Source: Thermoproteota archaeon
GTDB taxonomy: Archaea > Thermoproteota > Methanomethylicia > Culexarchaeales > Culexmicrobiaceae
Reading direction: 5' to 3'
DNA: 24,140 nucleotides
Assembly (NCBI GenBank): GCA_003649155.1
Contig: QMRA01000001.1
Span: 1-24,140 of the forward strand
Positions 4,715 to 16,933 of this stretch are shown here, in pieces. The notes beneath the pieces were generated by a model. The model was not told the DNA's origin, did no database searches, and saw only the letters and a program-made list of their open reading frames with translations. The translations under genes and the position numbers were made by a program. Positions within the stretch are counted from its first letter, which is position 1. Each line of letters opens with the position of its first letter.

Positions 4715-5113
4715 TTAGAGGATTACTCGTATTTGCCTAACTTCATTTGCGCTCAAGGTCAACCTCACCACAATCACGTAGTCGCTCTTAACCTCGTAAT
4801 TCAGCCTACTGCCAGTTTTACCATCAATCACATGAGTTATGCGCGAAACAGGCACGCCCCGCCCACTCAAGTCTATTTCAACATTAGCAACGACTGGCGT
4901 AGACTTCTCATTTTTAACTTCAAATATCAAGCATATGTGGTATGTGCCTGAAATCTGAACCAGCTGCGCCTCCTTATACTCAGCTTTCAAGTTGACGACG
5001 TTTAATGGCTGGAAGAAGTACAGTGCTAAGCCAAAAATCGTCATGGAAACTATGGCTGCAGCAAAGATCTTGAGAGCTAACCCCCGCCTCTTCGACCTAG
5101 GCATTCTCGCCAT
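4715..5113 (-). CDS. Small N-terminally membrane-anchored or secreted protein with a beta-rich C-terminal domain; possible class III signal peptide
   Basis: Basic N-terminus (PRSKRRG), one hydrophobic helix, then alternating beta-strand patterns. Start could be 5119, 5113 or 5104. Overlaps the upstream gene. Confidence 0.6.
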   Translation of the reverse strand: MARMPRSKRRGLALKIFAAAIVSMTIFGLALYFFQPLNVVNLKAEYKEAQLVQISGTYHICLIFEVKNEKSTPVVANVEIDLSGRGVPVSRITHVIDGKTGSRLNYEVKSDYVIVVRLTLSANEVRQIRVIL

Positions 5114-5522
5114 CTCCACCCAACAGCTTCGCGCACTCAGATAGGTGGCGAGCCAACTTTATAACTTTAGTTGACACCTTGAATACTTTGCCTTTCTCAA
5201 TGACGTAGTGCGTTAAGGGTATCGGCTCGCCTAATGCTCGATTAATGTGTTCGCCAATGAAGTGCAGTTGAATGCAGTGCGGAGAGCCGTCCATCGTCAA
5301 AATCTCAAGTTCCTTCACATTTGATAGCTTGACAATGTTTAGAAGTTTAAATCCAACCATGTTCATGTGAAGTAGCTCCATGCAGACGCCAAGCGCTACT
5401 CGCCCATCAGAAAACTCTCTTAGAATGCCCGGGTACTCCTGCTCTATGCACTTGCTGTAGATTAGGAGGCTAGCCCCTCTAAGCATCTTGCTCTTAACAC
5501 TCGTAGATAGAAGCTCAGACAT
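5097..5522 (-). CDS. Conserved Cys/His protein resembling the C-terminal domain of archaeal/bacterial ferredoxin-like proteins
   Basis: LLIYSKC, GVCMELLHMNMVGFKL, LTMDGSPHCIQLH. I recall this family being annotated as 4Fe-4S ferredoxin-related, but this ORF has no CxxCxxC motif. Confidence 0.55.
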   Translation of the reverse strand: MSELLSTSVKSKMLRGASLLIYSKCIEQEYPGILREFSDGRVALGVCMELLHMNMVGFKLLNIVKLSNVKELEILTMDGSPHCIQLHFIGEHINRALGEPIPLTHYVIEKGKVFKVSTKVIKLARHLSECAKLLGGDGENA

Positions 5523-5542: not shown

Positions 5543-6190
5543 ATGCCGCGAAGTGCAATAACATTTACTGTGGTGGACAAGTTGAACAGCAGGATAATTC
5601 TAGCCTCAGCATCACCGCGAAGAAGAGAAATCCTAGAGAGGATATTGGGTAGGAGCATCCAAGTCGTCATTCCTGAAGTAGATGAAGTAGTAGACATAAA
5701 CTTGAGCCCAGCTGAGCAAGCCAAAGCGTTAGCTCTAAAGAAGGCCGAGTACGCTGCAAGGAAGATTGAAAGTGGAATTGTAGTTGCAGGAGATACAGTA
5801 GTTGTCGTTGACGGAGAAGTTCTGGGGAAGCCTAAAGATGAGCGTGAAGCTAGAGAAATGCTGACAAAGCTGAGTGGAAAGGAGCATAAAGTGATTACTG
5901 GCATTGCAGTGATAAACGTTGAGACTGGAGAAGAGCTGGTGGACGCTGTTGAAACGAAAGTTTACATGAAAAAAATGACGATGGAAGAATTAGAATTGTA
6001 CATTAAGAGTGGAGAACCCCTCGGCAAAGCTGGGGGATACGCTATTCAAGAGATCGGCGCGCTACTAGTAGGCGGTATCGACGGTTGCTTCTTCAATGTC
6101 GTTGGGCTGCCAATATCGAAGCTCTATGAAATGCTAAAGCAATTTGGAGTAAACTTGCTTGAAGAGGCGGTTAGAGGGAGGAGGACTTGA
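5543..6190 (+). CDS. maf: Maf-family nucleoside triphosphate pyrophosphatase, YhdE-type (dTTP/UTP)
   Basis: IILASASPRRREIL, LALKKA, VAGDTVV, LGKP, GKAGGYAIQ, FFNVVGLP. The R/T/Q signature points to the YhdE subtype. The true start may be GTG at 5570 or 5573. Confidence 0.93.
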   Translation: MPRSAITFTVVDKLNSRIILASASPRRREILERILGRSIQVVIPEVDEVVDINLSPAEQAKALALKKAEYAARKIESGIVVAGDTVVVVDGEVLGKPKDEREAREMLTKLSGKEHKVITGIAVINVETGEELVDAVETKVYMKKMTMEELELYIKSGEPLGKAGGYAIQEIGALLVGGIDGCFFNVVGLPISKLYEMLKQFGVNLLEEAVRGRRT

Positions 6191-6984
6191 GTAAGCTGCG
6201 AAGCTTCAAAATCCACGAAATCTACTCGACCATGAGAGTGCCGCCAACAACCCCATTCATAGTTAGGTGCGATGGGCGGAATTTTAGAAGCCTATGCAGT
6301 AGGCTGGGCTTCAAAAAGCCATTTGACGAGGATTTTGCGAAAATCATGGTGACTGCAGCTAAGGCAGTCTTCAACTCAGGATTCAACCCAACTCTAGCGT
6401 ACATCCAATCAGATGAAATTAGCTACCTATTCACCAGAGAGCAGATATTCAGTAGGAGGCTCGAAAAGATACTGTCAATAATTCCAAGCGTAGTCAGTAG
6501 CAGATTCACACTTGAACTGTTGAGAATTAAGGGAGAAGAGGAAGTCGTCGCATTCGATGCTAGAATAGTCATCCTGTCCGAAAAGGACGTAGTTGACTAT
6601 TTTGCTTGGAGGCAGATGGAAGCTTGGAGAAACCACATAAATGCATATGCACTTTACGCGCTAGTCGCAAAAGGGTTGACAACCAGTCAAGCAGCGAAAA
6701 AGCTTCTCAAACTTAAATCTCCAGAACTCCACGACCTAGTGCTGAGGGAACTTAACGTTAACTTGGCTAAGACTCCTGCGTGGCAGAGGAGAGGCATAGT
6801 ATTGAGGTGGCACGTCTTTCAGAAGAGAGGAGTAAATCCAATTACTGGAGAAGCCGCTCTCACCATTAGGAGGAAACTAGTCGAAGATTGGCAGCCTCCC
6901 CTATTCACTACACCGGAGGGGAGGAAATACCTCGAAGAGGCGATCTTGGCAGCCGAAAAAGAAATCAGCAATCTTAGTGATTAA
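6187..6984 (+). CDS. thg1: tRNA(His) guanylyltransferase Thg1-like 3'-5' polymerase
   Basis: IVRCDGRNF, YIQSDEISYLF, AFDARIV, YFAWRQ.EAWRN. TTGA overlap with the maf stop. Confidence 0.92.
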   Translation: MSKLRSFKIHEIYSTMRVPPTTPFIVRCDGRNFRSLCSRLGFKKPFDEDFAKIMVTAAKAVFNSGFNPTLAYIQSDEISYLFTREQIFSRRLEKILSIIPSVVSSRFTLELLRIKGEEEVVAFDARIVILSEKDVVDYFAWRQMEAWRNHINAYALYALVAKGLTTSQAAKKLLKLKSPELHDLVLRELNVNLAKTPAWQRRGIVLRWHVFQKRGVNPITGEAALTIRRKLVEDWQPPLFTTPEGRKYLEEAILAAEKEISNLSD

Positions 6985-7002: not shown

Positions 7003-8115
7003 ATGTATTACGCTTTACGTCCAGACTCACTTCTAGTTTGGAGGAGTGAGGAGGTTAAAGAGAGGCTTTCATGGTACTATGAGGTCATGAAGGACAGGAA
7101 GCCAGCCAAGTACCTAATTTGTAAGAGAATACCAGTAGAAGTTAATTTAACGGAAGCAAGCGAGGAAGAGCTTTGGGAAGAGCACAAAAGAGCAGCTGAG
7201 AGCTTTAGAAAAGCACTCGACGAGATAGTTGAAGGTGAAAAGAAGCTTGAAGACCTACCTAAGCCTAAAGTTAGCTTTCTAGACTTGAAAATCGAGCTAG
7301 TTAAGAGGATGCTCACTCACTGCAACTTCTGCGAAAGAAGATGTGGAGTTAACAGGGCTGAGGGAGTGAAGGGCTTCTGCAGACTAGACTCCAAAACATA
7401 CGTGTCGTCCTGGTTCCACCACTGGGGTGAAGAAGCTCCACTAGTTCCAAGCGGCACAATATTCTTCGGCTCATGCAATTTCAGGTGTGTCTTCTGCCAA
7501 AACTACGACATAAGTCAACTTCACCCATATGCAGGAATACAAGTTAACTCCAAGGAGCTAGCAAAAATTCAAGCTACGCTGAGGAGGGAGGGAGTGAGGA
7601 ACATTAATTACGTAGGAGGAGAGCCGACGCCCAACCTCCACACAATAATCGAATCTCTAAAATACCTCGACGTAAACGTCCCCCTACTCTGGAACAGCAA
7701 CATGTACTGCAGTGTAGAAACGATAACCATACTCTTGGAATTAATAGACATCGCCCTACCAGACTTCAAGTACGGCAATGACTCATGCGCTAAGCGCCTG
7801 TCCATGGTCGACAGGTACTTCGAAGTAGTCTCCAGAAACCACAAGATGATGCACGACTACGGCATAGACATGATCATCAGGCACCTAGTAATGCCAAACC
7901 ACGTCGAGTGCTGCACCAAGCCAATTCTAGAGTGGATAGCTGAAAACCTCCCAAGAGCAATGGTAAACATCATGGGGCAGTACAGGCCCGAATACCTAGT
8001 CGCGTGGGAGCCGGAGAAGTATCCAGACATCGCTAGGAGGCCGTCGCAAGAGGAGATGGAAGCATCCTTCAAGTATGCTGACGAGCTAGGAATATGCTAC
8101 AGACCAGTTTCTTAA
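7003..8115 (+). CDS. pflX: Radical SAM protein, PflX / pyruvate-formate-lyase-activating-enzyme-like family
   Basis: Radical SAM motif CNFRCVFCQN, upstream CNFCERRC, HWGEEAPLVPSGTIFF, VGGEPTP, WNSNMY, DFKYGND, IRHLVMPNH, NIMGQYRP. The track start is TTG 6994; ATG 7003 is also possible. Confidence 0.88.
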   Translation: MYYALRPDSLLVWRSEEVKERLSWYYEVMKDRKPAKYLICKRIPVEVNLTEASEEELWEEHKRAAESFRKALDEIVEGEKKLEDLPKPKVSFLDLKIELVKRMLTHCNFCERRCGVNRAEGVKGFCRLDSKTYVSSWFHHWGEEAPLVPSGTIFFGSCNFRCVFCQNYDISQLHPYAGIQVNSKELAKIQATLRREGVRNINYVGGEPTPNLHTIIESLKYLDVNVPLLWNSNMYCSVETITILLELIDIALPDFKYGNDSCAKRLSMVDRYFEVVSRNHKMMHDYGIDMIIRHLVMPNHVECCTKPILEWIAENLPRAMVNIMGQYRPEYLVAWEPEKYPDIARRPSQEEMEASFKYADELGICYRPVS

Positions 8116-8733
8116 AATTTCAAATGCAAGTTTCTCACTTAAATCAGGATGACATGCACCTTCCCGCGTAAAGGATAGGAGTTCTGGTTTCAACTGGCAA
8201 AGCTTCTCCTTTCTAACCCAGAAGATCGCATCAGATATTTTTGCGACTACGTCTGGAAAGTAGGGTAGAAGAAGCCACTTCCCCATAATGTTAGTACACT
8301 TGACTGGTGATACTATAATTAGCCGCTCAACCCCATACGCGAATGCTATAGTCGATAGAACTTTGAACTCACTTAAGAGAAGTCTAGATATTGCAGCTCG
8401 CTTAGCTCTAAGCTCAAATCTCCTCACTATTGGCGGAAAGTGAAATTGCATTGAAGTATACTGCTGAAGAGCTGTGTAGAATATGCATTTCACATCTGAG
8501 CATATGCTTGATAAGCTGCGAATACATTTTGATAAAGAGCCGCTAACTTCGAGGATGAATACATCCTCATCAAGGTCGGTGAGAAGCGGCATGTCAACTA
8601 TAAGTAAGCTAGGCTTCCACTTGCAAGCCAAAGCACTAATAACCCTTTCAAGCTTCAATCCAAACAGCGTAACTACTTTCCAGCCATTCGACTCTATACG
8701 CGACTTCAAAGCGTTAATAGTCCAAGAAGTCAT
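8086..8733 (-). CDS. Hypothetical protein; putative catalytically dead RecA/Rad51-fold paralog
   Basis: The order of elements mirrors the RecA core (see findings) but there is no Walker A or B. Overlaps the SWIM gene by 20 nt and pflX convergently by 30 nt. Confidence 0.5.
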   Translation of the reverse strand: MTSWTINALKSRIESNGWKVVTLFGLKLERVISALACKWKPSLLIVDMPLLTDLDEDVFILEVSGSLSKCIRSLSSICSDVKCIFYTALQQYTSMQFHFPPIVRRFELRAKRAAISRLLLSEFKVLSTIAFAYGVERLIIVSPVKCTNIMGKWLLLPYFPDVVAKISDAIFWVRKEKLCQLKPELLSFTREGACHPDLSEKLAFEILRNWSVAYS

Positions 8734-9109
8734 CCATGCTCTTCTCCTTAATCATCCTCCACAGAATCACACTTCCAACATGCGTGCATATCCTCTTCAT
8801 TCGAATAGCGGCGAATAGCTTCTTAGGGTCATAGCAGGTGCAGCTGTACACCTTGTCTTTAGGGTGAAAGGTAACTACGTAGAAGGCTTCACAATCTCCT
8901 AAACTCCCTCTCCCCCTTACAATCCACATGTTTGGTTTAGGTGTAGAGTAGACGTCGACGAGCCTCAACTTGCATCGGTAAAACCAGGAGTATGGCTTGC
9001 CGCTGAACTTCACCTTGAACTTCTCGAAGGCGCGTTCAAGCTGGTCTGCTGAAACTCCTAACTTGACTAGTACAGTGAGCCTCTTGATGTCTCTACGTCT
9101 AGAGGACAT
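8714..9109 (-). CDS. Standalone SWIM zinc-finger protein
   Basis: YSCTC-x15-CTH (CxC...CxH) preceded by WIVRG...FYVVTF beta strands. Overlaps the radA-like stop by 11 nt. Confidence 0.82.
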   Translation of the reverse strand: MSSRRRDIKRLTVLVKLGVSADQLERAFEKFKVKFSGKPYSWFYRCKLRLVDVYSTPKPNMWIVRGRGSLGDCEAFYVVTFHPKDKVYSCTCYDPKKLFAAIRMKRICTHVGSVILWRMIKEKSMDDFLDY

Positions 9110-10082
9110 CCACTAAGCCCTTCTCCGAAATTCCAAATGTTGCAGATGATCCTCTCTGCAGGTAGGGGCTATCCTCAACGAGCATCCTCCTAACTAGAAT
9201 TCCCTGACGCTTAGAGTGTTGAGGCGCCATGAATAACCTGTGAGTAGTGCCGTGAGCAACTACATGGCCTCCAGCTGCAGTAACTCCACCGCCAGCTACT
9301 GGCTTAGCAACCACGTGGTTAGTTACGATGACGTAGACGTTGTACATCATAGCTACTCTCAAGAGGAAATTTAGCATGTAGTTGAGCGTCTGCTGCCTGG
9401 CAACCAGCATCTCCCTACCCCTATACTCGGCGCGGACGTGAGAGATCAAGCTGTCAACAACGGCTAGCTTGACGCCCTCCTCCTCAATGTACTTAGGGAG
9501 AATAGTCCTTATGCAGTCTATTTGCTCGTCCACATTCATGGGCTGGAAAACAAGTACACCGGACAGAGGGTCTTCAATATTGAAGCGCTCTCCAATTTTC
9601 GCTATTCTACTCTCAGAAAAGGTGCCTTCAGTATCTATGTAGAAAGCCTTTCCACCAACACCACCTCTATTCACTGTCAATTGGACGGTGGTTGAGAGCT
9701 GGAAGCAGAGTTGAGATTTACCAGTTCCATACTCACCAACAACTTCGTAGATGCACCTGGGCTCGAGGCCTCCCTCCAATAGCTGGTCAATAGACTTTAC
9801 GCCAGTGGTTAGTCTTGGGAGCTCACTGCGCATTGAAGCGTACTCAGAGGCTCTAAGGACTTTCTGCGGCCTAAAAGCTCGCCTCACTCTCATTAAAGCT
9901 CTATTTATCCTCGAGTAATCGTCTACGTCGACGTACATTAGCAGCTCGTCCAGCCCATACAAGGCTAGCTGCCTTGGAGTTAGGATTCCAGCTTTCCTCA
10001 GCTTCTCAGCAGTTGCAGGTCCAACTCCAGGGATGTCTTCAAGCTCCTTAAAAACCTCATTCTCAAAATCCTCCACCTTCAA
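9099..10082 (-). CDS. radA: Divergent full-length RadA/Rad51-family recombinase (probable paralog)
   Basis: N-terminal HhH (IPGVGPATAEKL), LTTG..SIDQLLEGG, Walker A GEYGTGKS, YIDTEGTF, Walker B VVDS, L1 RAEYRGREMLVARQQ, GGHVVAH. Start is TTG 10082 or GTG 10076 after GGAGGTGA. Confidence 0.88.
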   Translation of the reverse strand: MKVEDFENEVFKELEDIPGVGPATAEKLRKAGILTPRQLALYGLDELLMYVDVDDYSRINRALMRVRRAFRPQKVLRASEYASMRSELPRLTTGVKSIDQLLEGGLEPRCIYEVVGEYGTGKSQLCFQLSTTVQLTVNRGGVGGKAFYIDTEGTFSESRIAKIGERFNIEDPLSGVLVFQPMNVDEQIDCIRTILPKYIEEEGVKLAVVDSLISHVRAEYRGREMLVARQQTLNYMLNFLLRVAMMYNVYVIVTNHVVAKPVAGGGVTAAGGHVVAHGTTHRLFMAPQHSKRQGILVRRMLVEDSPYLQRGSSATFGISEKGLVDVL

Positions 10083-10419
10083 TCACCTCCAAAAACAGCT
10101 TTTTCAAGTAGTTAAGGTGAAGAATGACCTTGTCAAGCTCAAAAACTAAATCGCGTGGGGTAAGTTGAGGAGAAGTAGAGGTGAGGTCTCTAAGCGCTTG
10201 GATTAGTGAATTTACCTTCCCCCTATCATAATACTCCTCGAAGAGAAGCTTACCCTCACTTCTACCTGCGTCAGAGCGCTTAGGCATGAGAATTAACTCT
10301 CTCCTTACATTTCCACTCCTAGTCAATCTGTAATTTGCAATTACGAGGCCCTTTGAAGAGGCTAGGACAACGTAGCTGAAGCCTCTCCCATCTCTATGCC
10401 ATCTAATCCAGCTACTCAT
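10063..10419 (-). CDS. Small basic/aromatic hypothetical protein (about 118 aa)
   Basis: ATG at 10419 follows GGTGATGGTG and overlaps the upstream stop (track start 10449). The 3' end overlaps radA. No family recognised. Confidence 0.6.
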   Translation of the reverse strand: MSSWIRWHRDGRGFSYVVLASSKGLVIANYRLTRSGNVRRELILMPKRSDAGRSEGKLLFEEYYDRGKVNSLIQALRDLTSTSPQLTPRDLVFELDKVILHLNYLKKLFLEVIEGGGF

Positions 10420-11755
10420 CACCATCACCCCTATAGCTTGAGTACTCATTTAGCGCTGCAATGCCGGAGGGCGTTATTCTCAAGTAGTACTTGCCATCTC
10501 TCCCAACGACATCTGCAATGAAGCCATACGCTGAAAGCACACTGATTATGCGCTGTGCTACTTCGCTACTTAGCCCTAAGACTCCTACAGCATACCCCAT
10601 GAGGGTGTCGCGGTCTGCAGCTCCTTGAAGTAGGAATGACAGTATCTGCGCAGCAGGGTCTGCTAATCCTCTAAACATTTTGTGAAGGGCAGACTCCACC
10701 TTAGGCTTAGTTGGCTTGATGACGTCCTCAACTGGAATCCTCACCTCAGGCAGTTCTTTAAATTTGAGCTCTGCAATACTAACTCTACCACCATAGAATA
10801 CGAGGAAAGCACTACTTGGAATGTAATTTACGTGCTCCAGTCGGAAGTCGGCAAGCGGGAGAAGAGCTGATAGAGCATTAAATTCCTCTTTAGAGCGTGG
10901 AGGCGATGAAAAGGCGCAATTGAGGCTAAGTCTAGCTCTGAATGCAAGTAGCATAGGGCTTCTGCAAGATAAGATTATAGCAGGATTCCTCGACCGCTTC
11001 AAAATATCTAAGATGAAGAGGGTTCTCTCAAAGGCTACAGCATACTCCTCTCTTAAAGCTCTCATTAGGCCCGGCATTAGTAGATCTGACTCCTCCAAAA
11101 CTAGTTTTACGTCGCTCCTCTCGGAAAAATTCAGGAAGAGGAGGATTGAAGCTAAAACTCTAAATTCTCTAGGTAGGTGGTGGAGATCTACTATTAGGAG
11201 AGAATTACCTACATCATCTAGCCCCAGGAATCCACTAAATGATGATCCAATTCTACCCCAAGTTAAATTGTCTAGAAGCCTTAGAAGCCTGAAGCTGTAC
11301 GGCCTAGTGGATGCTATTTGCGATTGCGATTCAATTTCAAGTATAACATCCTCAACACTAGGCTCATAAACACCTCTAGCTACGAAACGAGCTAGAGCTT
11401 GCTGCAAAATTCTAGCAGAAACTTCACTTATGTGGAAGCTCAACTTGAAAGCTTCAGAAATTTCAAAAGCTCGAATATAAGGGTCAAACCAAGATAGGTT
11501 GAAGGGAGAAATAGAGGCGTTAAAGCCGAGGCGAACTAATTTACAATCCCTGCATAATGAGCAGAGGGCAGAATACTCTCCAAAGCCGTCGATAACTATG
11601 GTCTTCTCCCAGCCCAAGGCGTCCAAAATAGATGCATTAATTTTAACTCGCTCACTAATCGGCCCAAAAGTGCCTAAAAGGCACTTGGCCACGCGAAGAC
11701 TTGAAAGTATAGACGCTAAATTTACGATCCCAAGCATTCTAGGAACAACTACCAT
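10412..11755 (-). CDS. Degenerate HerA/VirB4/FtsK-fold ATPase-like protein with C-terminal winged helix
   Basis: VIDGFGEY, SISPF, LLIVDLHHL, LVLEESD, AIILSCRSP occur in HerA-like order, and the Walker A position reads GTFGPISE. The C-terminus is wHTH-like (AQILSFL...AQRIISVLSAYGFI...YYLRITPSG). Strong GGAGGTTGGTGA RBS. Confidence 0.6.
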   Translation of the reverse strand: MVVVPRMLGIVNLASILSSLRVAKCLLGTFGPISERVKINASILDALGWEKTIVIDGFGEYSALCSLCRDCKLVRLGFNASISPFNLSWFDPYIRAFEISEAFKLSFHISEVSARILQQALARFVARGVYEPSVEDVILEIESQSQIASTRPYSFRLLRLLDNLTWGRIGSSFSGFLGLDDVGNSLLIVDLHHLPREFRVLASILLFLNFSERSDVKLVLEESDLLMPGLMRALREEYAVAFERTLFILDILKRSRNPAIILSCRSPMLLAFRARLSLNCAFSSPPRSKEEFNALSALLPLADFRLEHVNYIPSSAFLVFYGGRVSIAELKFKELPEVRIPVEDVIKPTKPKVESALHKMFRGLADPAAQILSFLLQGAADRDTLMGYAVGVLGLSSEVAQRIISVLSAYGFIADVVGRDGKYYLRITPSGIAALNEYSSYRGDGDE

Positions 11756-12158
11756 GAATCACCAACCTCCAAATGCAAATGGCCTTCATTAGAATGGATG
11801 TTAAGAGGAGGAGAATTGCGGAGTTAATGGAGCATTTCAAATAGGATATGAAGGTTAAAGCGTCAACTAGAAATGATAAGGTTAGGATGGACTTCGCGCG
11901 CTTAACTACTCTCGAAGAAGGTAGGCAGATAGACTTAATATTGTAGAGGCTTTTCAATTCGCGAGATGGAAGTATAAATTCACCATCCCTAAGAGCATAA
12001 TTGCCTGCTAGAAGCTCATTTAGAGCAGCATCTAATCCTTCACTTGAAATGATCATTGCTGGAATCTTTCCTCTTAAAACTAGAGCTAAAGATAGAGATT
12101 CAACATCACCTTTTCGCTCAAAAACACTATCAATTCGCATCTTATTTTGGGAAATCAT
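11739..12158 (-). CDS. Hypothetical protein (139 aa)
   Basis: ATGA overlap with the upstream gene and 17-nt overlap with the downstream gene place it inside the operon. No family recognised. Confidence 0.5.
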   Translation of the reverse strand: MISQNKMRIDSVFERKGDVESLSLALVLRGKIPAMIISSEGLDAALNELLAGNYALRDGEFILPSRELKSLYNIKSICLPSSRVVKRAKSILTLSFLVDALTFISYLKCSINSAILLLLTSILMKAICIWRLVIHGSCS

Positions 12159-12739
12159 AGCTCAACACCCCAAAAGCTCGCTGTTAATAATGCGCTGACC
12201 AGCTCTTCGCCTTTCAGAATCTTAACTTCACTAGCAGGTATCGATGTAGCCAGAGAATTTAGAATTCCAGATATTATTGAAACTGCCTCATCCTTACTTC
12301 GAATAGATGAGGAAATCCGTGGACAAAGTAGGTAAAAGTCTCCACGAGACTTATTCCTAATAAAAATGAAGGAATAATCTGCAGGAATGCTCTGCAAAAT
12401 CTTCTTGAAAAGCTCTTCATCCCTAATTTCACGGAAAGCAAGAGCTCCAGAGACTGAGAATCCACCTAAACCTGATGAGCAGAGAGCTACGCAGCCCAGT
12501 ACGCCGAGTTTAATATTGACATCAAATATTGTTTTTGAAAAATTGCTGACTTTTAACTTCTCAATAATCACAGTCTTTTTAACAATGCATTTATTTTTCT
12601 TGTTTTTGCTGTTTTTTAATTTTTTAATTAAGTAGATTATTAGAAATGATGGGATAAGTATGAAGGTAAGGATGTGAAAGTTGGCTGCGAGCAGGAGGAG
12701 AGATAGTAGTAATGTGATCAAGCTGAGCAAGTCGACCAC
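12155..12739 (-). CDS. Membrane protein with N-terminal hydrophobic segment(s), Lys/Asn-rich linker and soluble alpha/beta domain
   Basis: About 35 hydrophobic N-terminal residues followed by KKLKNSKNKKNK. First gene of the minus-strand operon. Confidence 0.62.
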   Translation of the reverse strand: MVDLLSLITLLLSLLLLAANFHILTFILIPSFLIIYLIKKLKNSKNKKNKCIVKKTVIIEKLKVSNFSKTIFDVNIKLGVLGCVALCSSGLGGFSVSGALAFREIRDEELFKKILQSIPADYSFIFIRNKSRGDFYLLCPRISSSIRSKDEAVSIISGILNSLATSIPASEVKILKGEELVSALLTASFWGVEL

Positions 12740-12866
12740 CGGTTTAAGGTGGAACGTGGAGGAAGTTAAGCATGTTTTAGATGTCCGGCGAACAGCTTAC
12801 ATTCGATGAGTGGCGAATAATTAATTGCTAGGTGGGGTTGAGTTATTTGATGAAGTTGGTGGAACA

Positions 12867-13523
12867 TTGAGTAACAGTGTAGAGTTGAAAGCTGAGGAGC
12901 TGAAGGTTTTAGCTGACAAAACTAGGTTGAGAATACTTGTATTGCTTAAGGAGAGAGGAGAGCTTGGCTTAAATGATATTTCAAATTTGACTGGTAAAGC
13001 CAAGTCCACGATTTCAGATCACTTGAAGCTCTTGCTCAAGGCCGGGTTTATAGAGAGGAAGGAGGCGGATAGGGGGTTTCTATACTTTTTAACTGAGAAG
13101 GGTGCGAGTGTTCTTCCGCTGATTGAAGATAAGCCTTATACAGTTAGGGTTGAAGAAGAAGCAGCCTCCTCCAGCTTCATGGTTAACATTGAGTTGTGGC
13201 TTGAGAGGATTGGCAGGGGTAGAAGACATGTGGTACCTTCAGTTTTACTGGGCTTGTCAATGATCATTCTTGGGTACATGCCGTTATCAGCGGTGGTAAC
13301 GTCATTAGCTCTAGGAGCAATTTTAGGATTGCTGGATGCGAATGCCCGCGAATTTGCTGAAAGCTCAGCATTATATGCAGTTTTCACTGCAATTTCAGCC
13401 ATCTTGAGGGAGTGGAGTTTAGCTATGATACTCACCGTCCTACCTTCACTTGCAATCTTCATTTTAATTGGAGGAATTGCGTGGATAGGGGTTAAACTCA
13501 TAATGCAGAAGTGGATAAGGTAG
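12867..13523 (+). CDS. ArsR-type winged-helix transcriptional regulator fused to a C-terminal multi-TM domain
   Basis: LKVLADKTRLRILVLL, ISNLTGKAKSTISDHLKLLLKAGFIE, YFLTEKG, then 3-4 hydrophobic helices. The track start is 12825; TTG 12867 follows GGTGGA. Confidence 0.82.
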   Translation: MSNSVELKAEELKVLADKTRLRILVLLKERGELGLNDISNLTGKAKSTISDHLKLLLKAGFIERKEADRGFLYFLTEKGASVLPLIEDKPYTVRVEEEAASSSFMVNIELWLERIGRGRRHVVPSVLLGLSMIILGYMPLSAVVTSLALGAILGLLDANAREFAESSALYAVFTAISAILREWSLAMILTVLPSLAIFILIGGIAWIGVKLIMQKWIR

Positions 13524-15320: not shown

Positions 15321-16040
15321 TTGCACACAGAAGGAGGGAAAACTGTGGAGCAGGTTAAGGCGATAATCGAGAAGGCATTGATGGAGAATAGGAAGTACCT
15401 TCTGGAAAGTGAAGCTAAGAAGATATGCGAAGCATATGGAATACCAGTCACACGATTTAAAGTCGCAACAAACGAAGAGGAAGCCGTAAAATTTGCCAAT
15501 GAAATAGGCTACCCAGTAGTTTTCAAAATAGTCTCGCCAGACGTAATTCACAAATCAGATGTAGGAGGAGTCATACTCAACATTAAAAATGACGAGGAAG
15601 CCAAGAAAGCTTACAAGCAAATATTAGAAAACGTCAAAAAGCACGTTCCAGATGCAAAAATAGTTGGAGTCTTCGTTCAAGAAATGGCGCCGCAAGGAAC
15701 AGAAGTGATAGTCGGAGCGCTAAAAGACCCGCAATTTGGCCCCACAGTAATGTTTGGTCTAGGGGGCATATTCGTAGAAATTCTGAAAGACGTCACTTTC
15801 AGAATAGCGCCAGTAACTAAGGAAGAAGCCGAGGAGATGATCAAGGAGATTAAAGGCTATCCGATACTTAGAGGCTATAGAGGGAAGCCTCCTTCCGACG
15901 TGGAAGCAATAGTAGACATAATAGTCAAGGTATCTAAATTAGTGACGGACTTCCCACAAATAAGCCAGCTAGACTTAAACCCGATATTCGTCTACGAAAA
16001 GGGAGCAAAAGTCATTGATGCGAGGATAATTCTAGAATGA
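15321..16040 (+). CDS. acdB: ADP-forming acyl/acetyl-CoA synthetase beta subunit (ATP-grasp)
   Basis: LLESEAK, GYPVVFKIVSPDVIHKSDVGGV, VQEM, DPQFGPTVMFGLGGIFVEILKD, LDLNP. Confidence 0.92.
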   Translation: MHTEGGKTVEQVKAIIEKALMENRKYLLESEAKKICEAYGIPVTRFKVATNEEEAVKFANEIGYPVVFKIVSPDVIHKSDVGGVILNIKNDEEAKKAYKQILENVKKHVPDAKIVGVFVQEMAPQGTEVIVGALKDPQFGPTVMFGLGGIFVEILKDVTFRIAPVTKEEAEEMIKEIKGYPILRGYRGKPPSDVEAIVDIIVKVSKLVTDFPQISQLDLNPIFVYEKGAKVIDARIILE

Positions 16041-16933
16041 ACGAAGCCTACGAGCAAGAGCTGAGGACCATAGAGGGAAAAATCAAAGAAGCTGAGAGCA
16101 TAATTAGAGATCTGAGAAGTAAGCAAGAGAACCTCAAAAGCCAGTTGAGAAGTGTAGTAGAGCGAATTAGGAGAGAAAGGCAGAAGGTAGAAGACTTCAT
16201 TAGTAGCGTAGAGGGAGTGAAAGCAAAGTTAGCTGAAGTGAGAAGTAGAATTAGAGAGGTTAAGGAGGAAATAAGAAGCCTTAAGAAAAGCATTAGGGAA
16301 AAAGCGGATAAAGCTAGGAAGATGAAGCTTCAATCATTAAATATAAGGAGAGAAGTTAGGAGTAGTTTAAAGCAAATTAAAGAGAGAATTGAGAAGCTGG
16401 AATGGTATCATCAAACGCACCCACTGAGCAGAGAGGAAGAAAAGAGAATTGTCAGTCAAATAGAAGATCTACATAAGAAAAAGAAGAAACTTGAAATTGC
16501 AATTTCACTTGAAGAGAAAGCCATAGAGCTTCAAGTCGAAGTTCAAGCTTCGAAGAGCAGGCTAAGTAAATTGCAGAGCGAGTTGGAGGAGCTTCTGAAT
16601 AAGCTAAATGAGTTGAAGGAAGAAAGAGAGAAGATATTGTCCAAGAAGAAGGAGCAGTGGCAGCAAGTATGTAGCTTGAAGGATGAAGCCAGTAAAATTA
16701 GAAGTGAGCTGAGCGCCATTAGCGAGAAGATCCAAGAACTTCAAAAGGAGTTAATCAACCTTAAGGCTAAGCGCAATGCCATTCTCCTTAAGATCGAGAA
16801 GGAAAAAAAGAGAAAGGCAATGATAAGATTAGCTGAAGTAGCTAAGGAGAAACTGAAGCGCGGAGAGAGGCTGAGTTTCGAAGAATTTAAAGCGCTGATG
16901 GAAGTAGATAAAAATGTGATGACAACTTTATAG
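16037..16933 (+). CDS. Long archaeal coiled-coil protein (COG1340-like)
   Basis: Continuous heptad-like E/K/L/I pattern, central LEWYHQTHPLSREEEKRIV, terminal KLKRGERLSFEE. ATGA overlap with acdB. Confidence 0.72.
   Translation: MNEAYEQELRTIEGKIKEAESIIRDLRSKQENLKSQLRSVVERIRRERQKVEDFISSVEGVKAKLAEVRSRIREVKEEIRSLKKSIREKADKARKMKLQSLNIRREVRSSLKQIKERIEKLEWYHQTHPLSREEEKRIVSQIEDLHKKKKKLEIAISLEEKAIELQVEVQASKSRLSKLQSELEELLNKLNELKEEREKILSKKKEQWQQVCSLKDEASKIRSELSAISEKIQELQKELINLKAKRNAILLKIEKEKKRKAMIRLAEVAKEKLKRGERLSFEEFKALMEVDKNVMTTL

What the first reader, a model, noticed from the sequence alone, without database searches (positions are those of the whole stretch)
8086..8733. 215-aa ORF looks like a RecA/Rad51 core with the ATPase motifs erased
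Seen, by eye against the neighbouring RadA: KVVTLFG then a helix (Walker A strand, GxxGxGK lost); LLIVDMP (cf. YIDTE); KCIFYTAL (cf. KLAVVDSL); RRFELRAKR...LSEFKVLSTIAFAYGVERLIIVSPV (cf. RAEYRGR...LNFLLRVAMMYNVYVIVTNHV); P..VAKISDAIFWVRK (cf. GGHVVAHGTTHRLFM); FTREG (cf. ISEKG). Inference: a catalytically dead Rad51 paralog analogous to Csm2/Psy3/Shu1.
Basis: inference. Interest (0 to 1): 0.7.

Follow-up and report, generated by a model that had tools for sequence, protein, structure and literature searches.

The report
Dead Rad51-fold partner in archaeal operon
This gene of a hot-sediment archaeon encodes a protein shaped like the core of the recombination enzyme Rad51/RadA but stripped of its ATP-using residues, and it sits with a spare RadA and a zinc-finger gene in a conserved operon that recalls the helper complexes that load Rad51 in yeast and humans.

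Summary
The 215-aa ORF (8086-8733, minus strand) is a real gene (dN/dS 0.17). No sequence method links it to RecA. Two structure predictions do. An AlphaFold2 model (pLDDT 89) matches RAD51 at Z 15.5 (rmsd 2.6 over 174 residues) and XRCC3/RAD51C/RAD51D at Z about 14, above RadB at 11.8. The ESM Atlas single-sequence model also ranks Rad51/RadB clusters first. The P-loop, the catalytic Glu and the Walker B Asp are gone. The gene ends a conserved operon: membrane protein, dead HerA/VirB4-type ATPase, unknown protein, second RadA lacking the FxxA Phe, SWIM protein, this gene. Genes in the same slot range from an intact RadB-like ATPase to 130-aa remnants, and two related contigs fuse a similar domain to SWIM. 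Best reading: a non-catalytic scaffold or cap of a RadA-paralog complex, Shu-like in design. Shu membership is not supported. The SWIM protein lacks Shu2's invariant Phe (0 of 21), and SWIM and this slot's gene each occur without the other. No binding or function was shown.

The parts
8086..8733 (-). X: 215-aa Rad51/RadA-fold pseudo-ATPase (no N-terminal HhH domain, no P-loop, no catalytic Glu, no Walker B Asp); the finding
8635..8676 (-). Remnant of the Walker A strand and helix (residues 20-33): only the first Gly (G25) is kept and the P-loop is shortened
   Evidence: (G25 nearly invariant)
8467..8493 (-). Walker B strand without its Asp (residues 81-89)
   Evidence: (register against a RadB-like slot-mate)
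8714..9109 (-). 131-aa SWIM zinc-finger protein (C90, C92, C108, H110 invariant; CxC-x15-CxH; basic insert)
   Evidence: Pfam SWIM only weakly (3 of 21 members, best E 0.12; E 0.0085 for a more distant homolog)
9099..10082 (-). 327-aa second, full-length RadA (RadA'): Walker A/B and catalytic Glu intact, FxxA Phe replaced by Val; not the genome's canonical RadA
10063..10449 (-). Y: 128-aa conserved protein of unknown fold; lies directly upstream of RadA' in the operons mapped
   Evidence: no family found
10412..11755 (-). H: 447-aa HerA/VirB4-type ATPase with Walker A lost, plus a probable C-terminal winged helix
   Evidence: DUF87 clusters, score 0.93; profile hits intact ATPases, E 1e-16 to 1e-25
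11739..12158 (-). 139-aa ORF inserted in the operon in this genus (present in G001, not in G002 or G004)
   Evidence: dN/dS 0.29
12155..12739 (-). M: 194-aa protein with a hydrophobic N-terminal segment (likely membrane anchor, read by eye); first gene of the operon
12825..13523 (+). ArsR-type winged-helix regulator with hydrophobic C-terminus, divergent from the operon; a homolog flanks the operon in many of the genomes mapped

Best explanation
X is a catalytically dead RadA/Rad51 paralog that works as a structural subunit. Shown by prediction and sequence: it has the Rad51 core fold, lacks the residues needed to bind and hydrolyse ATP, is under purifying selection, and is encoded right after RadA' and a SWIM protein. 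Inferred: X, RadA' and usually SWIM form a small hetero-oligomer that does not polymerise. X has no N-terminal domain or FxxA motif to donate, and RadA' has lost the FxxA Phe (the role of FxxA in filament contacts is recalled knowledge). The oligomer would seed, cap or stabilise filaments of the canonical RadA on single-stranded DNA, as Rad51 paralog complexes (Shu, BCDX2/CX3) do, with any ATP turnover left to RadA'. More loosely inferred: the membrane protein M and dead translocase H tether the module where DNA enters or is held at the membrane. My odds step by step: fold 0.93, no ATPase 0.9, in a complex with RadA' 0.6, recombination mediator about 0.45.
For: Model pLDDT 89.4, pTM 0.87. Foldseek: 321 matches at E<=0.001, the listed top ones all RecA-family. 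VIA wide: XRCC3-complex chain Z 14.1, RAD51C-XRCC3 14.0, DX2-CX3 chain D 13.8, DMC1 13.2, RadB 11.8, Sso2452 10.6. RAD51 Z 15.5, rmsd 2.6 over 174; archaeal RadA 13.8. The independent Atlas model matches Rad51/RadB clusters at TM 0.55-0.57. Synteny: the SWIM profile matched 24 of 62 class genomes; in all 24 RadA' lies directly upstream, and in 23 a 130-215-aa gene follows (the 24th ends its contig). An iterated profile from this family alone pulled in 17 of 2944 ORFs, all slot-mates and no decoy. Four more distant slot-mates match RadA' as a profile (94.7%, E 6e-8), and one is RadB-like with intact Walker A (TIGR02237 E 1.5e-13). Walker A is present in 1 of 42 slot proteins. RadA' lacks the FxxA Phe in 56 of 58 operon copies, whereas the 14 canonical RadA rows all keep FxxA and fall in a separate 97%-supported group of 15 (quick tree). 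SWIM is fused to a slot-like domain in L060 and L096.
Against: There is no sequence-level link from X to any RecA profile. The iterated profile did not reach RadB or the f4, f5, f7, f8, f9 slot-mates, so one orthologous series is not proven. The good model came from an alignment that included four RadA-like slot-mates and was partly misaligned; a model from the six closest sequences was poor (pLDDT 42) and matched nothing. X is dispensable: in 13 SWIM-less f5 genomes a slot gene follows RadA' in 9 and none in 4. SWIM follows RadA' with no X in L055, L078 and L099, and in G298 and G318 it sits after a KaiC-like gene instead. The fused C-terminal domains are slot-like only by position and pattern (4.5% against RadA'). 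Dead RecA folds also serve outside recombination: Elp456 Z 11.0, PH0250 11.5, a Bcs complex chain 10.2. The L1 region is not conserved among X orthologs.
Confidence: 0.5

Rival explanations
1. The operon is a membrane-tethered receiving station for transferred DNA, derived from a Ced/Ted-like apparatus. X is one of two dead ATPase scaffolds (with H) that hand incoming DNA to a dedicated RadA', which may itself catalyse strand exchange. SWIM is an optional DNA-binding helper.
For: M-H-Y-RadA' is the stable core and X and SWIM are optional. H's best profile hits are intact HerA/VirB4-type ATPases, most with hydrophobic N-termini, the architecture described for CedB/CedD (passages of PMC11823120 and 10.1101/2024.09.27.615246). 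In G343:C27 a SWIM and RadA paralog lie beside pilin-like, secretion-ATPase, ParA-like and ParB genes. RadA' keeps its catalytic motifs. The SWIM insert is basic and several Arg/Lys/Trp are conserved.
Against: H has no Walker A in any of 13 aligned copies, so it cannot be the motor. No CedA-like channel or pilin gene is in the window's operon (by eye). The M profile did not match the N-terminal part of the intact ATPases. Only one of the loci mapped had a pilus context.
Confidence: 0.25
2. X is an inhibitor: a dead cap that, alone or with RadA', ends or blocks RadA filaments (anti-recombinase, like the activity suggested for Sso2452).
For: The same anatomy as the best reading (one usable interface, no ATPase). 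Most X proteins are basic (pI 9.1-9.9 in the six f1 rows). Sso2452 inhibits D-loop formation (passage of PMC8708640) and is a structural match at Z 10.6.
Against: The structure is closer to RAD51 and its mediator paralogs than to Sso2452 by more than 3 Z units. Cotranscription with an intact RadA' is more simply a partnership than an antagonism (inference).
Confidence: 0.12
3. X is a decaying duplicate with a minor role, or a RecA-fold adaptor unrelated to recombination (Elp4/5/6-, BcsE- or inactive-KaiC-like); the slot-mates are not one family.
For: X evolves fast (62% identity within the genus against 90% for RadA'), is lost in several lineages, and ranges from 130 to 215 aa. The groups are not joined by sequence. 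Atlas feature hits at 0.77-0.80 include BcsE, ELP6 and KaiC clusters (lead level only).
Against: dN/dS 0.17 is in the range of the other operon genes (0.11-0.19 for SWIM, Y, H, M). The gene is kept beside SWIM and RadA' across an order and into another class with detectable homology. Structural rank favours the Rad51 clade.
Confidence: 0.13

Closest known systems
Eukaryotic Shu complex (yeast Csm2-Psy3-Shu1-Shu2, PMC5727457; human SWS1-SWSAP1, PMC6316741)
   Same: A SWIM (CxC-xn-CxH) protein paired with highly diverged Rad51-core paralogs of very low sequence identity that lack the N-terminal domain.
   Different: Archaeal and operon-encoded. The SWIM protein lacks Shu2's invariant Phe (0 of 21) and has Ser for the invariant Ala in 9 of 21, including this one. 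X keeps strands beyond beta5, whereas Shu1 has four strands. SWSAP1 is described as keeping Walker motifs. The partner set includes a full-length RadA', a dead HerA/VirB4-type ATPase and a membrane protein. SWIM and X can each occur without the other.
Human RAD51 paralogs XRCC3, RAD51C, RAD51D, XRCC2 (PDB 9omy, 8gja, 9q25, 8faz)
   Same: Best structural matches among 48161 representative chains (Z 13-14); entry titles describe filament capping.
   Different: These keep Walker A/B (PMC6316741 passage). X has none and has 11-14% identity; the match shows fold, not orthology.
Archaeal RadB (TIGR02237, PDB 2cvf) and aRadC/Sso2452 (PDB 2w0m)
   Same: Short RadA paralogs without the N-terminal domain; one slot-mate is RadB-like with intact Walker A.
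   Different: X has no ATPase motifs and scores lower against them (Z 11.8, 10.6). This genome has a separate RadB-like gene on C4 and a KaiC-like gene on C77.
Ced system ATPases CedB/CedD (PMC11823120; bioRxiv 10.1101/2024.09.27.615246)
   Same: The operon's M and H together resemble a membrane anchor plus HerA/VirB4-type ATPase.
   Different: H lacks Walker A and carries a probable winged helix. No channel or pilin gene is in the operon. RadA and SWIM do not occur in the main text of those two papers (term counts 0).

Membership tests
RecA/Rad51 fold superfamily | RecA-type alpha/beta core with Rad51 strand order | tested here: met
   Z 15.5, rmsd 2.6, 174 aligned; TM 0.55-0.57; predicted models only
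RecA/Rad51 fold superfamily | Significant sequence or profile similarity to RecA-family HMMs | tested here: not met
   only more distant slot-mates match
Active RadA/RadB ATPases | Walker A GxxxxGK(S/T) | tested here: not met
   absent in X; present in 1 of 42 slot proteins
Active RadA/RadB ATPases | Catalytic Glu after strand 2 and Walker B Asp | tested here: not met
   Pro49 and Thr87 at the matching places; register from profile alignment and by eye, could be off by one
RadA recombinase | N-terminal HhH domain and FxxA polymerisation motif | tested here: not met
   X starts at the helix before strand 1 (model residue 6 aligns to RAD51 104); neighbouring RadA' has HhH but no Phe
RadB | Match to TIGR02237/PRK09361 | tested here: not met
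   no hit; iterated profile reached a RadB-like protein only at E 0.98
Shu complex | Partner with a SWIM CxC-xn-CxH motif (n usually 6-16) | tested here: met
   adjacent gene, four ligands invariant in 21 of 21, n 14-15
Shu complex | Shu2/SWS1 invariant Phe (Shu2 F119, CxC+3) and Ala (A181, H+3), from PMC5727457 section 11 | tested here: not met
   Phe 0 of 21 (Pro in 15); Ala 12 of 21, Ser in the window's protein; SWIM profile finds no PDB chain
Shu complex | Structural closeness of X to Shu1/Psy3/Csm2 | tested here: inconclusive
   not among the 50 rows shown; only the top rows are listed
Shu complex | Physical SWIM-paralog complex | tested here: inconclusive
   gene fusion in L060 and L096; the complex prediction is reported under Tried and rejected
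Shu complex | Binds forked/ssDNA and promotes Rad51/RadA filament formation | not testable with these tools
   needs biochemistry

The most novel reading that the evidence does not exclude
A lineage of Thermoproteota has its own Shu-like mediator: a SWIM protein, a non-polymerising full-length RadA paralog and a dead Rad51-core cap, whose decay from an active RadA/RadB-type ATPase can be followed across living genomes. It is tethered to the membrane by a dead Ced-type translocase so that incoming DNA is loaded straight onto RadA. The SWIM-plus-dead-paralog design would then predate eukaryotes or have arisen twice.
Probability: 0.3. Interest if true: 0.8.

Novelty: new variant of a known kind. 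Interest (0 to 1): 0.55.

Why it matters
The archaeal RadA paralogs named in the review passage I read (RadB, Sso2452; PMC8708640) are ATPase-type proteins, and my searches found no report of an ATP-site-less paralog tied to a SWIM gene in archaea. If X, SWIM and RadA' form a mediator, it is a three-protein thermophilic model for how Rad51 paralog complexes cap or seed filaments, and it bears on whether the Shu design is older than eukaryotes. The gene slot also offers a natural series from an intact ATPase to a 130-aa remnant. The operon itself has been noted several times by this scan in other genomes, so this report adds structure and counter-evidence rather than a first sighting.

Tried and rejected
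Sequence searches for X gave no family: Pfam and NCBIfam, PDB sequences (10, 31, 125), pairwise and profile against RadA' (11, 33). Protein databases returned only close relatives: 3, 3, 6. AlphaFold2 on the six closest sequences failed (pLDDT 42) and its Foldseek search had no match at E<=0.001. Complex prediction of SWIM + Zn + X gave no answer (score 0.00, controls not folded); it is no evidence either way. Shu1, Psy3 and Csm2 were not among the listed rows. Profile chains did not join all slot groups. The SWIM, Y and H profiles found no significant PDB chain. The idea that M is the split N-terminus of the intact HerA/VirB4 paralogs got no support. Promoter and TATA scans were uninformative. 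No RNA holder was listed. The careful tree did not finish and the quick tree was used. Literature: searches (SWS1, archaeal, SWIM, RadB; SWIM, HerA, RadA, arCOG) returned 0 papers. Searches listed no paper on such an operon by title or abstract start. Searches were swamped by unrelated words. Three papers were not held, among them Godin et al. 2015 on the Shu2/SWS1 family. PMC5727457 says Shu2 orthologs run 'from archaea to humans', so an archaeal SWIM may already be named there; no supplements were read. Rejected: that X is this genome's RadB, or that P0006 is its main RadA.

Full report
OBSERVATION. The feature is a minus-strand ORF, 8733 to 8086, 215 aa, here called X. Its start overlaps the upstream SWIM gene by 20 bp and its end overlaps a convergent radical-SAM gene by 30 bp. 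Contigs of two other public runs reproduce most of it with 0-1 differences per piece. It is under purifying selection: dN/dS 0.17 against G001. A search of 41 related genomes found it in 4, and a family profile found it in 5 of 62 class genomes, all of one family. Named records closest to the neighbouring SWIM protein are titled Ca. Culexmicrobium (71% and 58%, L065, L067) and Ca. Culexarchaeum (L070), so the window comes from that group of Thermoproteota.

SEQUENCE EVIDENCE IS NEGATIVE. X hits nothing in Pfam, NCBIfam or PDB sequences. Against the neighbouring RadA, BLASTP gives E 14 and hhalign 0.3-0.4%, below an unrelated control at 24.8%.

STRUCTURE EVIDENCE IS POSITIVE. The ESM Atlas model of this very sequence (pLDDT 0.67) is nearest to archaeal Rad51/RadB clusters and RAD51C, TM 0.55-0.57, each under the tool's bar for naming a family. 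AlphaFold2 on the six closest sequences failed (pLDDT 42) and matched nothing. With 23 proteins from the same gene slot, none with a Walker A, it gave pLDDT 89.4 and pTM 0.87. Foldseek's listed matches are RAD51, DMC1, RadA, RecA, Sak4 and paralog-complex entries (best E 1.3e-7). Against 48161 representative chains the top rows are an XRCC3-complex chain (Z 14.1, rmsd 3.0, 176 aligned), RAD51C-XRCC3 (14.0), a DX2-CX3 chain (13.8), DMC1 (13.2) and yeast Rad51 (12.9), then KaiC-like (12.4), RadB (11.8), Elp456 (11.0) and Sso2452 (10.6). A second look gave RAD51 Z 15.5 (rmsd 2.6, 174 aligned) and archaeal RadA 13.8. Caveat: the alignment held four slot-mates that are RadA-like by sequence, which may have nudged the model; the Atlas model is free of that.

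ANATOMY. X begins at the helix before strand 1, so it has no HhH domain and no FxxA motif (ranges). Strand 20-25 ends in G25, nearly invariant across slot-mates, and runs into helix 29-38 without the GK(S/T) loop. After strand 2 the catalytic Glu position holds Pro49. The Walker B strand (83-86) has Thr for Asp (register; variants). About 15 residues between strands 2 and 3 are missing relative to RadA'. One of 42 slot proteins has a Walker A. ATP hydrolysis is therefore very unlikely (inference). The six f1 proteins are basic (pI 9.1-9.9), but the L1 region is not conserved.

THE OPERON. On the minus strand: M (12155-12739, hydrophobic N-terminus), a genus-specific 139-aa ORF, H (10412-11755), Y (10063-10449), RadA' (9099-10082), SWIM (8714-9109), X; an ArsR-type regulator diverges upstream. 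The SWIM profile matched 24 of 62 class genomes. In all 24 RadA' is directly upstream and in 23 a 130-215-aa gene follows; the last ends its contig. Kin are not independent. RadA' is not the main recombinase: this genome has a partial canonical RadA on C83, another RadA on C44, a RadB-like gene on C4 and a KaiC-like gene on C77, and five relatives show the same multiplicity. RadA' keeps its ATPase motifs but lacks the FxxA Phe in 56 of 58 operon copies. All 14 canonical rows keep FxxA and group apart at 97% SH-aLRT with one odd long-branch row (quick tree, 79 rows, fragments under 290 aa left out). H resembles DUF87/HerA/VirB4 proteins (score 0.93, 193-196 shared features). Its profile finds intact ATPases at E 1e-16 to 1e-25, yet its own Walker A is lost in 13 of 13 aligned copies. 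The H profile matched 94 of 401 phylum genomes, many being those intact paralogs; the SWIM profile matched 81 of 401.

THE SLOT SERIES. An iterated profile started from X's family alone converged on 17 of 2944 unique ORFs, all slot-mates (families f1, f3, f6 and two Thermoprotei records), with no decoy. It did not reach RadB. The four f4/f8 slot-mates lack Walker A, mostly keep the Walker B Asp, and match RadA' (94.7%). The f9 slot-mate is RadB-like with an intact P-loop (E 1.5e-13), in a genome that has another RadB-like gene. The f7 proteins are about 130-150 aa. The groups are joined by position and pattern, not all by significant sequence scores. Two contigs fuse SWIM to a slot-like domain (L060, L096), with weak scores for that domain. 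Against an obligate SWIM-X pair: in family f5 the SWIM profile found 0 of 32 genomes, yet 9 of the 13 f5 operons I mapped have a slot gene after RadA' and 4 have none. L055, L078 and L099 have SWIM with no X. In G298 and G318 SWIM sits after a KaiC-like gene away from the operon. The constant core is M-H-Y-RadA'.

MECHANISM. Most likely X is a non-catalytic subunit that docks on RadA' and ends the oligomer, with SWIM as an optional third subunit. The complex would seed or cap canonical RadA filaments (confidence 0.5 for the whole; the role of FxxA is recalled knowledge). Rivals: a membrane-tethered receiving station for transferred DNA (0.25; one locus, G343:C27, lies beside pilus and partition genes), an anti-recombinase cap (0.12), or a decaying or unrelated adaptor (0.13). 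The first two can both be true. No binding, activity or expression was shown.

COMPARISON WITH KNOWN SYSTEMS. It is built like Shu: PMC5727457 (passages, section 11 and references seen) describes Csm2, Psy3 and Shu1 as Rad51-core look-alikes bound to the SWIM protein Shu2. It is not shown to be Shu: the invariant Shu2 Phe is absent in 21 of 21 archaeal SWIMs, the invariant Ala is present in 12 of 21, and Shu subunits were not listed among the structural matches. PMC6316741 (passages) says SWSAP1 and the canonical paralogs keep Walker motifs. PMC8708640 (passages) names RadB and Sso2452 as archaeal paralogs. The two Ced papers (passages) do not mention RadA or SWIM. My nine paper searches found no description of this operon, but the library lacks most subscription papers, three relevant papers were not held, and no supplements were read. 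Earlier notes of this scan describe the same operon in other genomes; they are not independent support.

VERDICT. Observation confirmed; fold interpretation supported by predicted structure; Shu analogy plausible but untested and weakened by the independent gain and loss of SWIM and X. New variant of a known kind, interest 0.55.

Noticed in passing
window 9099-10082 (-): The RadA next to the finding is a paralog, not the main recombinase; the Phe of its FxxA motif is replaced in 56 of 58 operon copies while the ATPase motifs are intact.
   Followed up: yes
window 10412-11755 (-) and 12155-12739 (-): A second dead ATPase (HerA/VirB4 type with probable winged helix) and a likely membrane anchor head the same operon; M-H-Y-RadA' is the constant core in the operons mapped.
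   Followed up: partly
window 10063-10449 (-): Conserved 128-aa protein with no family hit, directly before RadA'; looks beta-rich with a C-terminal helix by eye; candidate ssDNA-binding protein, untested.
   Followed up: partly
window 11739-12158 (-): 139-aa ORF inserted between M and H in this genome and G001 but not G002 or G004; dN/dS 0.29; no family.
   Followed up: partly
G000 contig C44 831-2593 (-): A second RadA with intact FxxA is followed by a 246-aa RadA-like paralog that lacks a recognisable Walker A (95.6% to the RadA' profile), near a Cdc6-like ORF (label by eye); a second RadA-plus-dead-paralog pair in the same genome.
   Followed up: partly
L060:1483-2280 and L096: Natural fusions of SWIM to a slot-like domain (265 and 261 aa) after RadA'; good targets for folding.
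   Followed up: partly
L061, L063, L064 and other f18/f30/f32 genomes: Longer SWIM homologs (190-300 aa, different C-terminal domain) occur in up to 8 matches per genome, one beside an intact HerA/VirB4-like ATPase; possibly on mobile elements.
   Followed up: no
L215/L286 (G343:C27): A second SWIM and RadA paralog lie beside pilin-like, secretion-ATPase, ParA-like and ParB genes.
   Followed up: partly
L058, L059, L076: SWIM gene directly downstream of a KaiC-like ATPase, away from the RadA' operon.
   Followed up: no
window 5097-5522 (-) and 4715-5119 (-): Two genes without Pfam hits, conserved in order in G001, G002 and G004; the 141-aa one is Cys/His-rich.
   Followed up: no
window 6187-6984 (+): tRNA-His guanylyltransferase (Thg1) gene between Maf and a radical-SAM gene, order kept in three relatives.
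   Followed up: no
window 16037-16933 (+): 298-aa long coiled-coil protein, conserved in position but divergent (37-65% in the relatives where seen).
   Followed up: no
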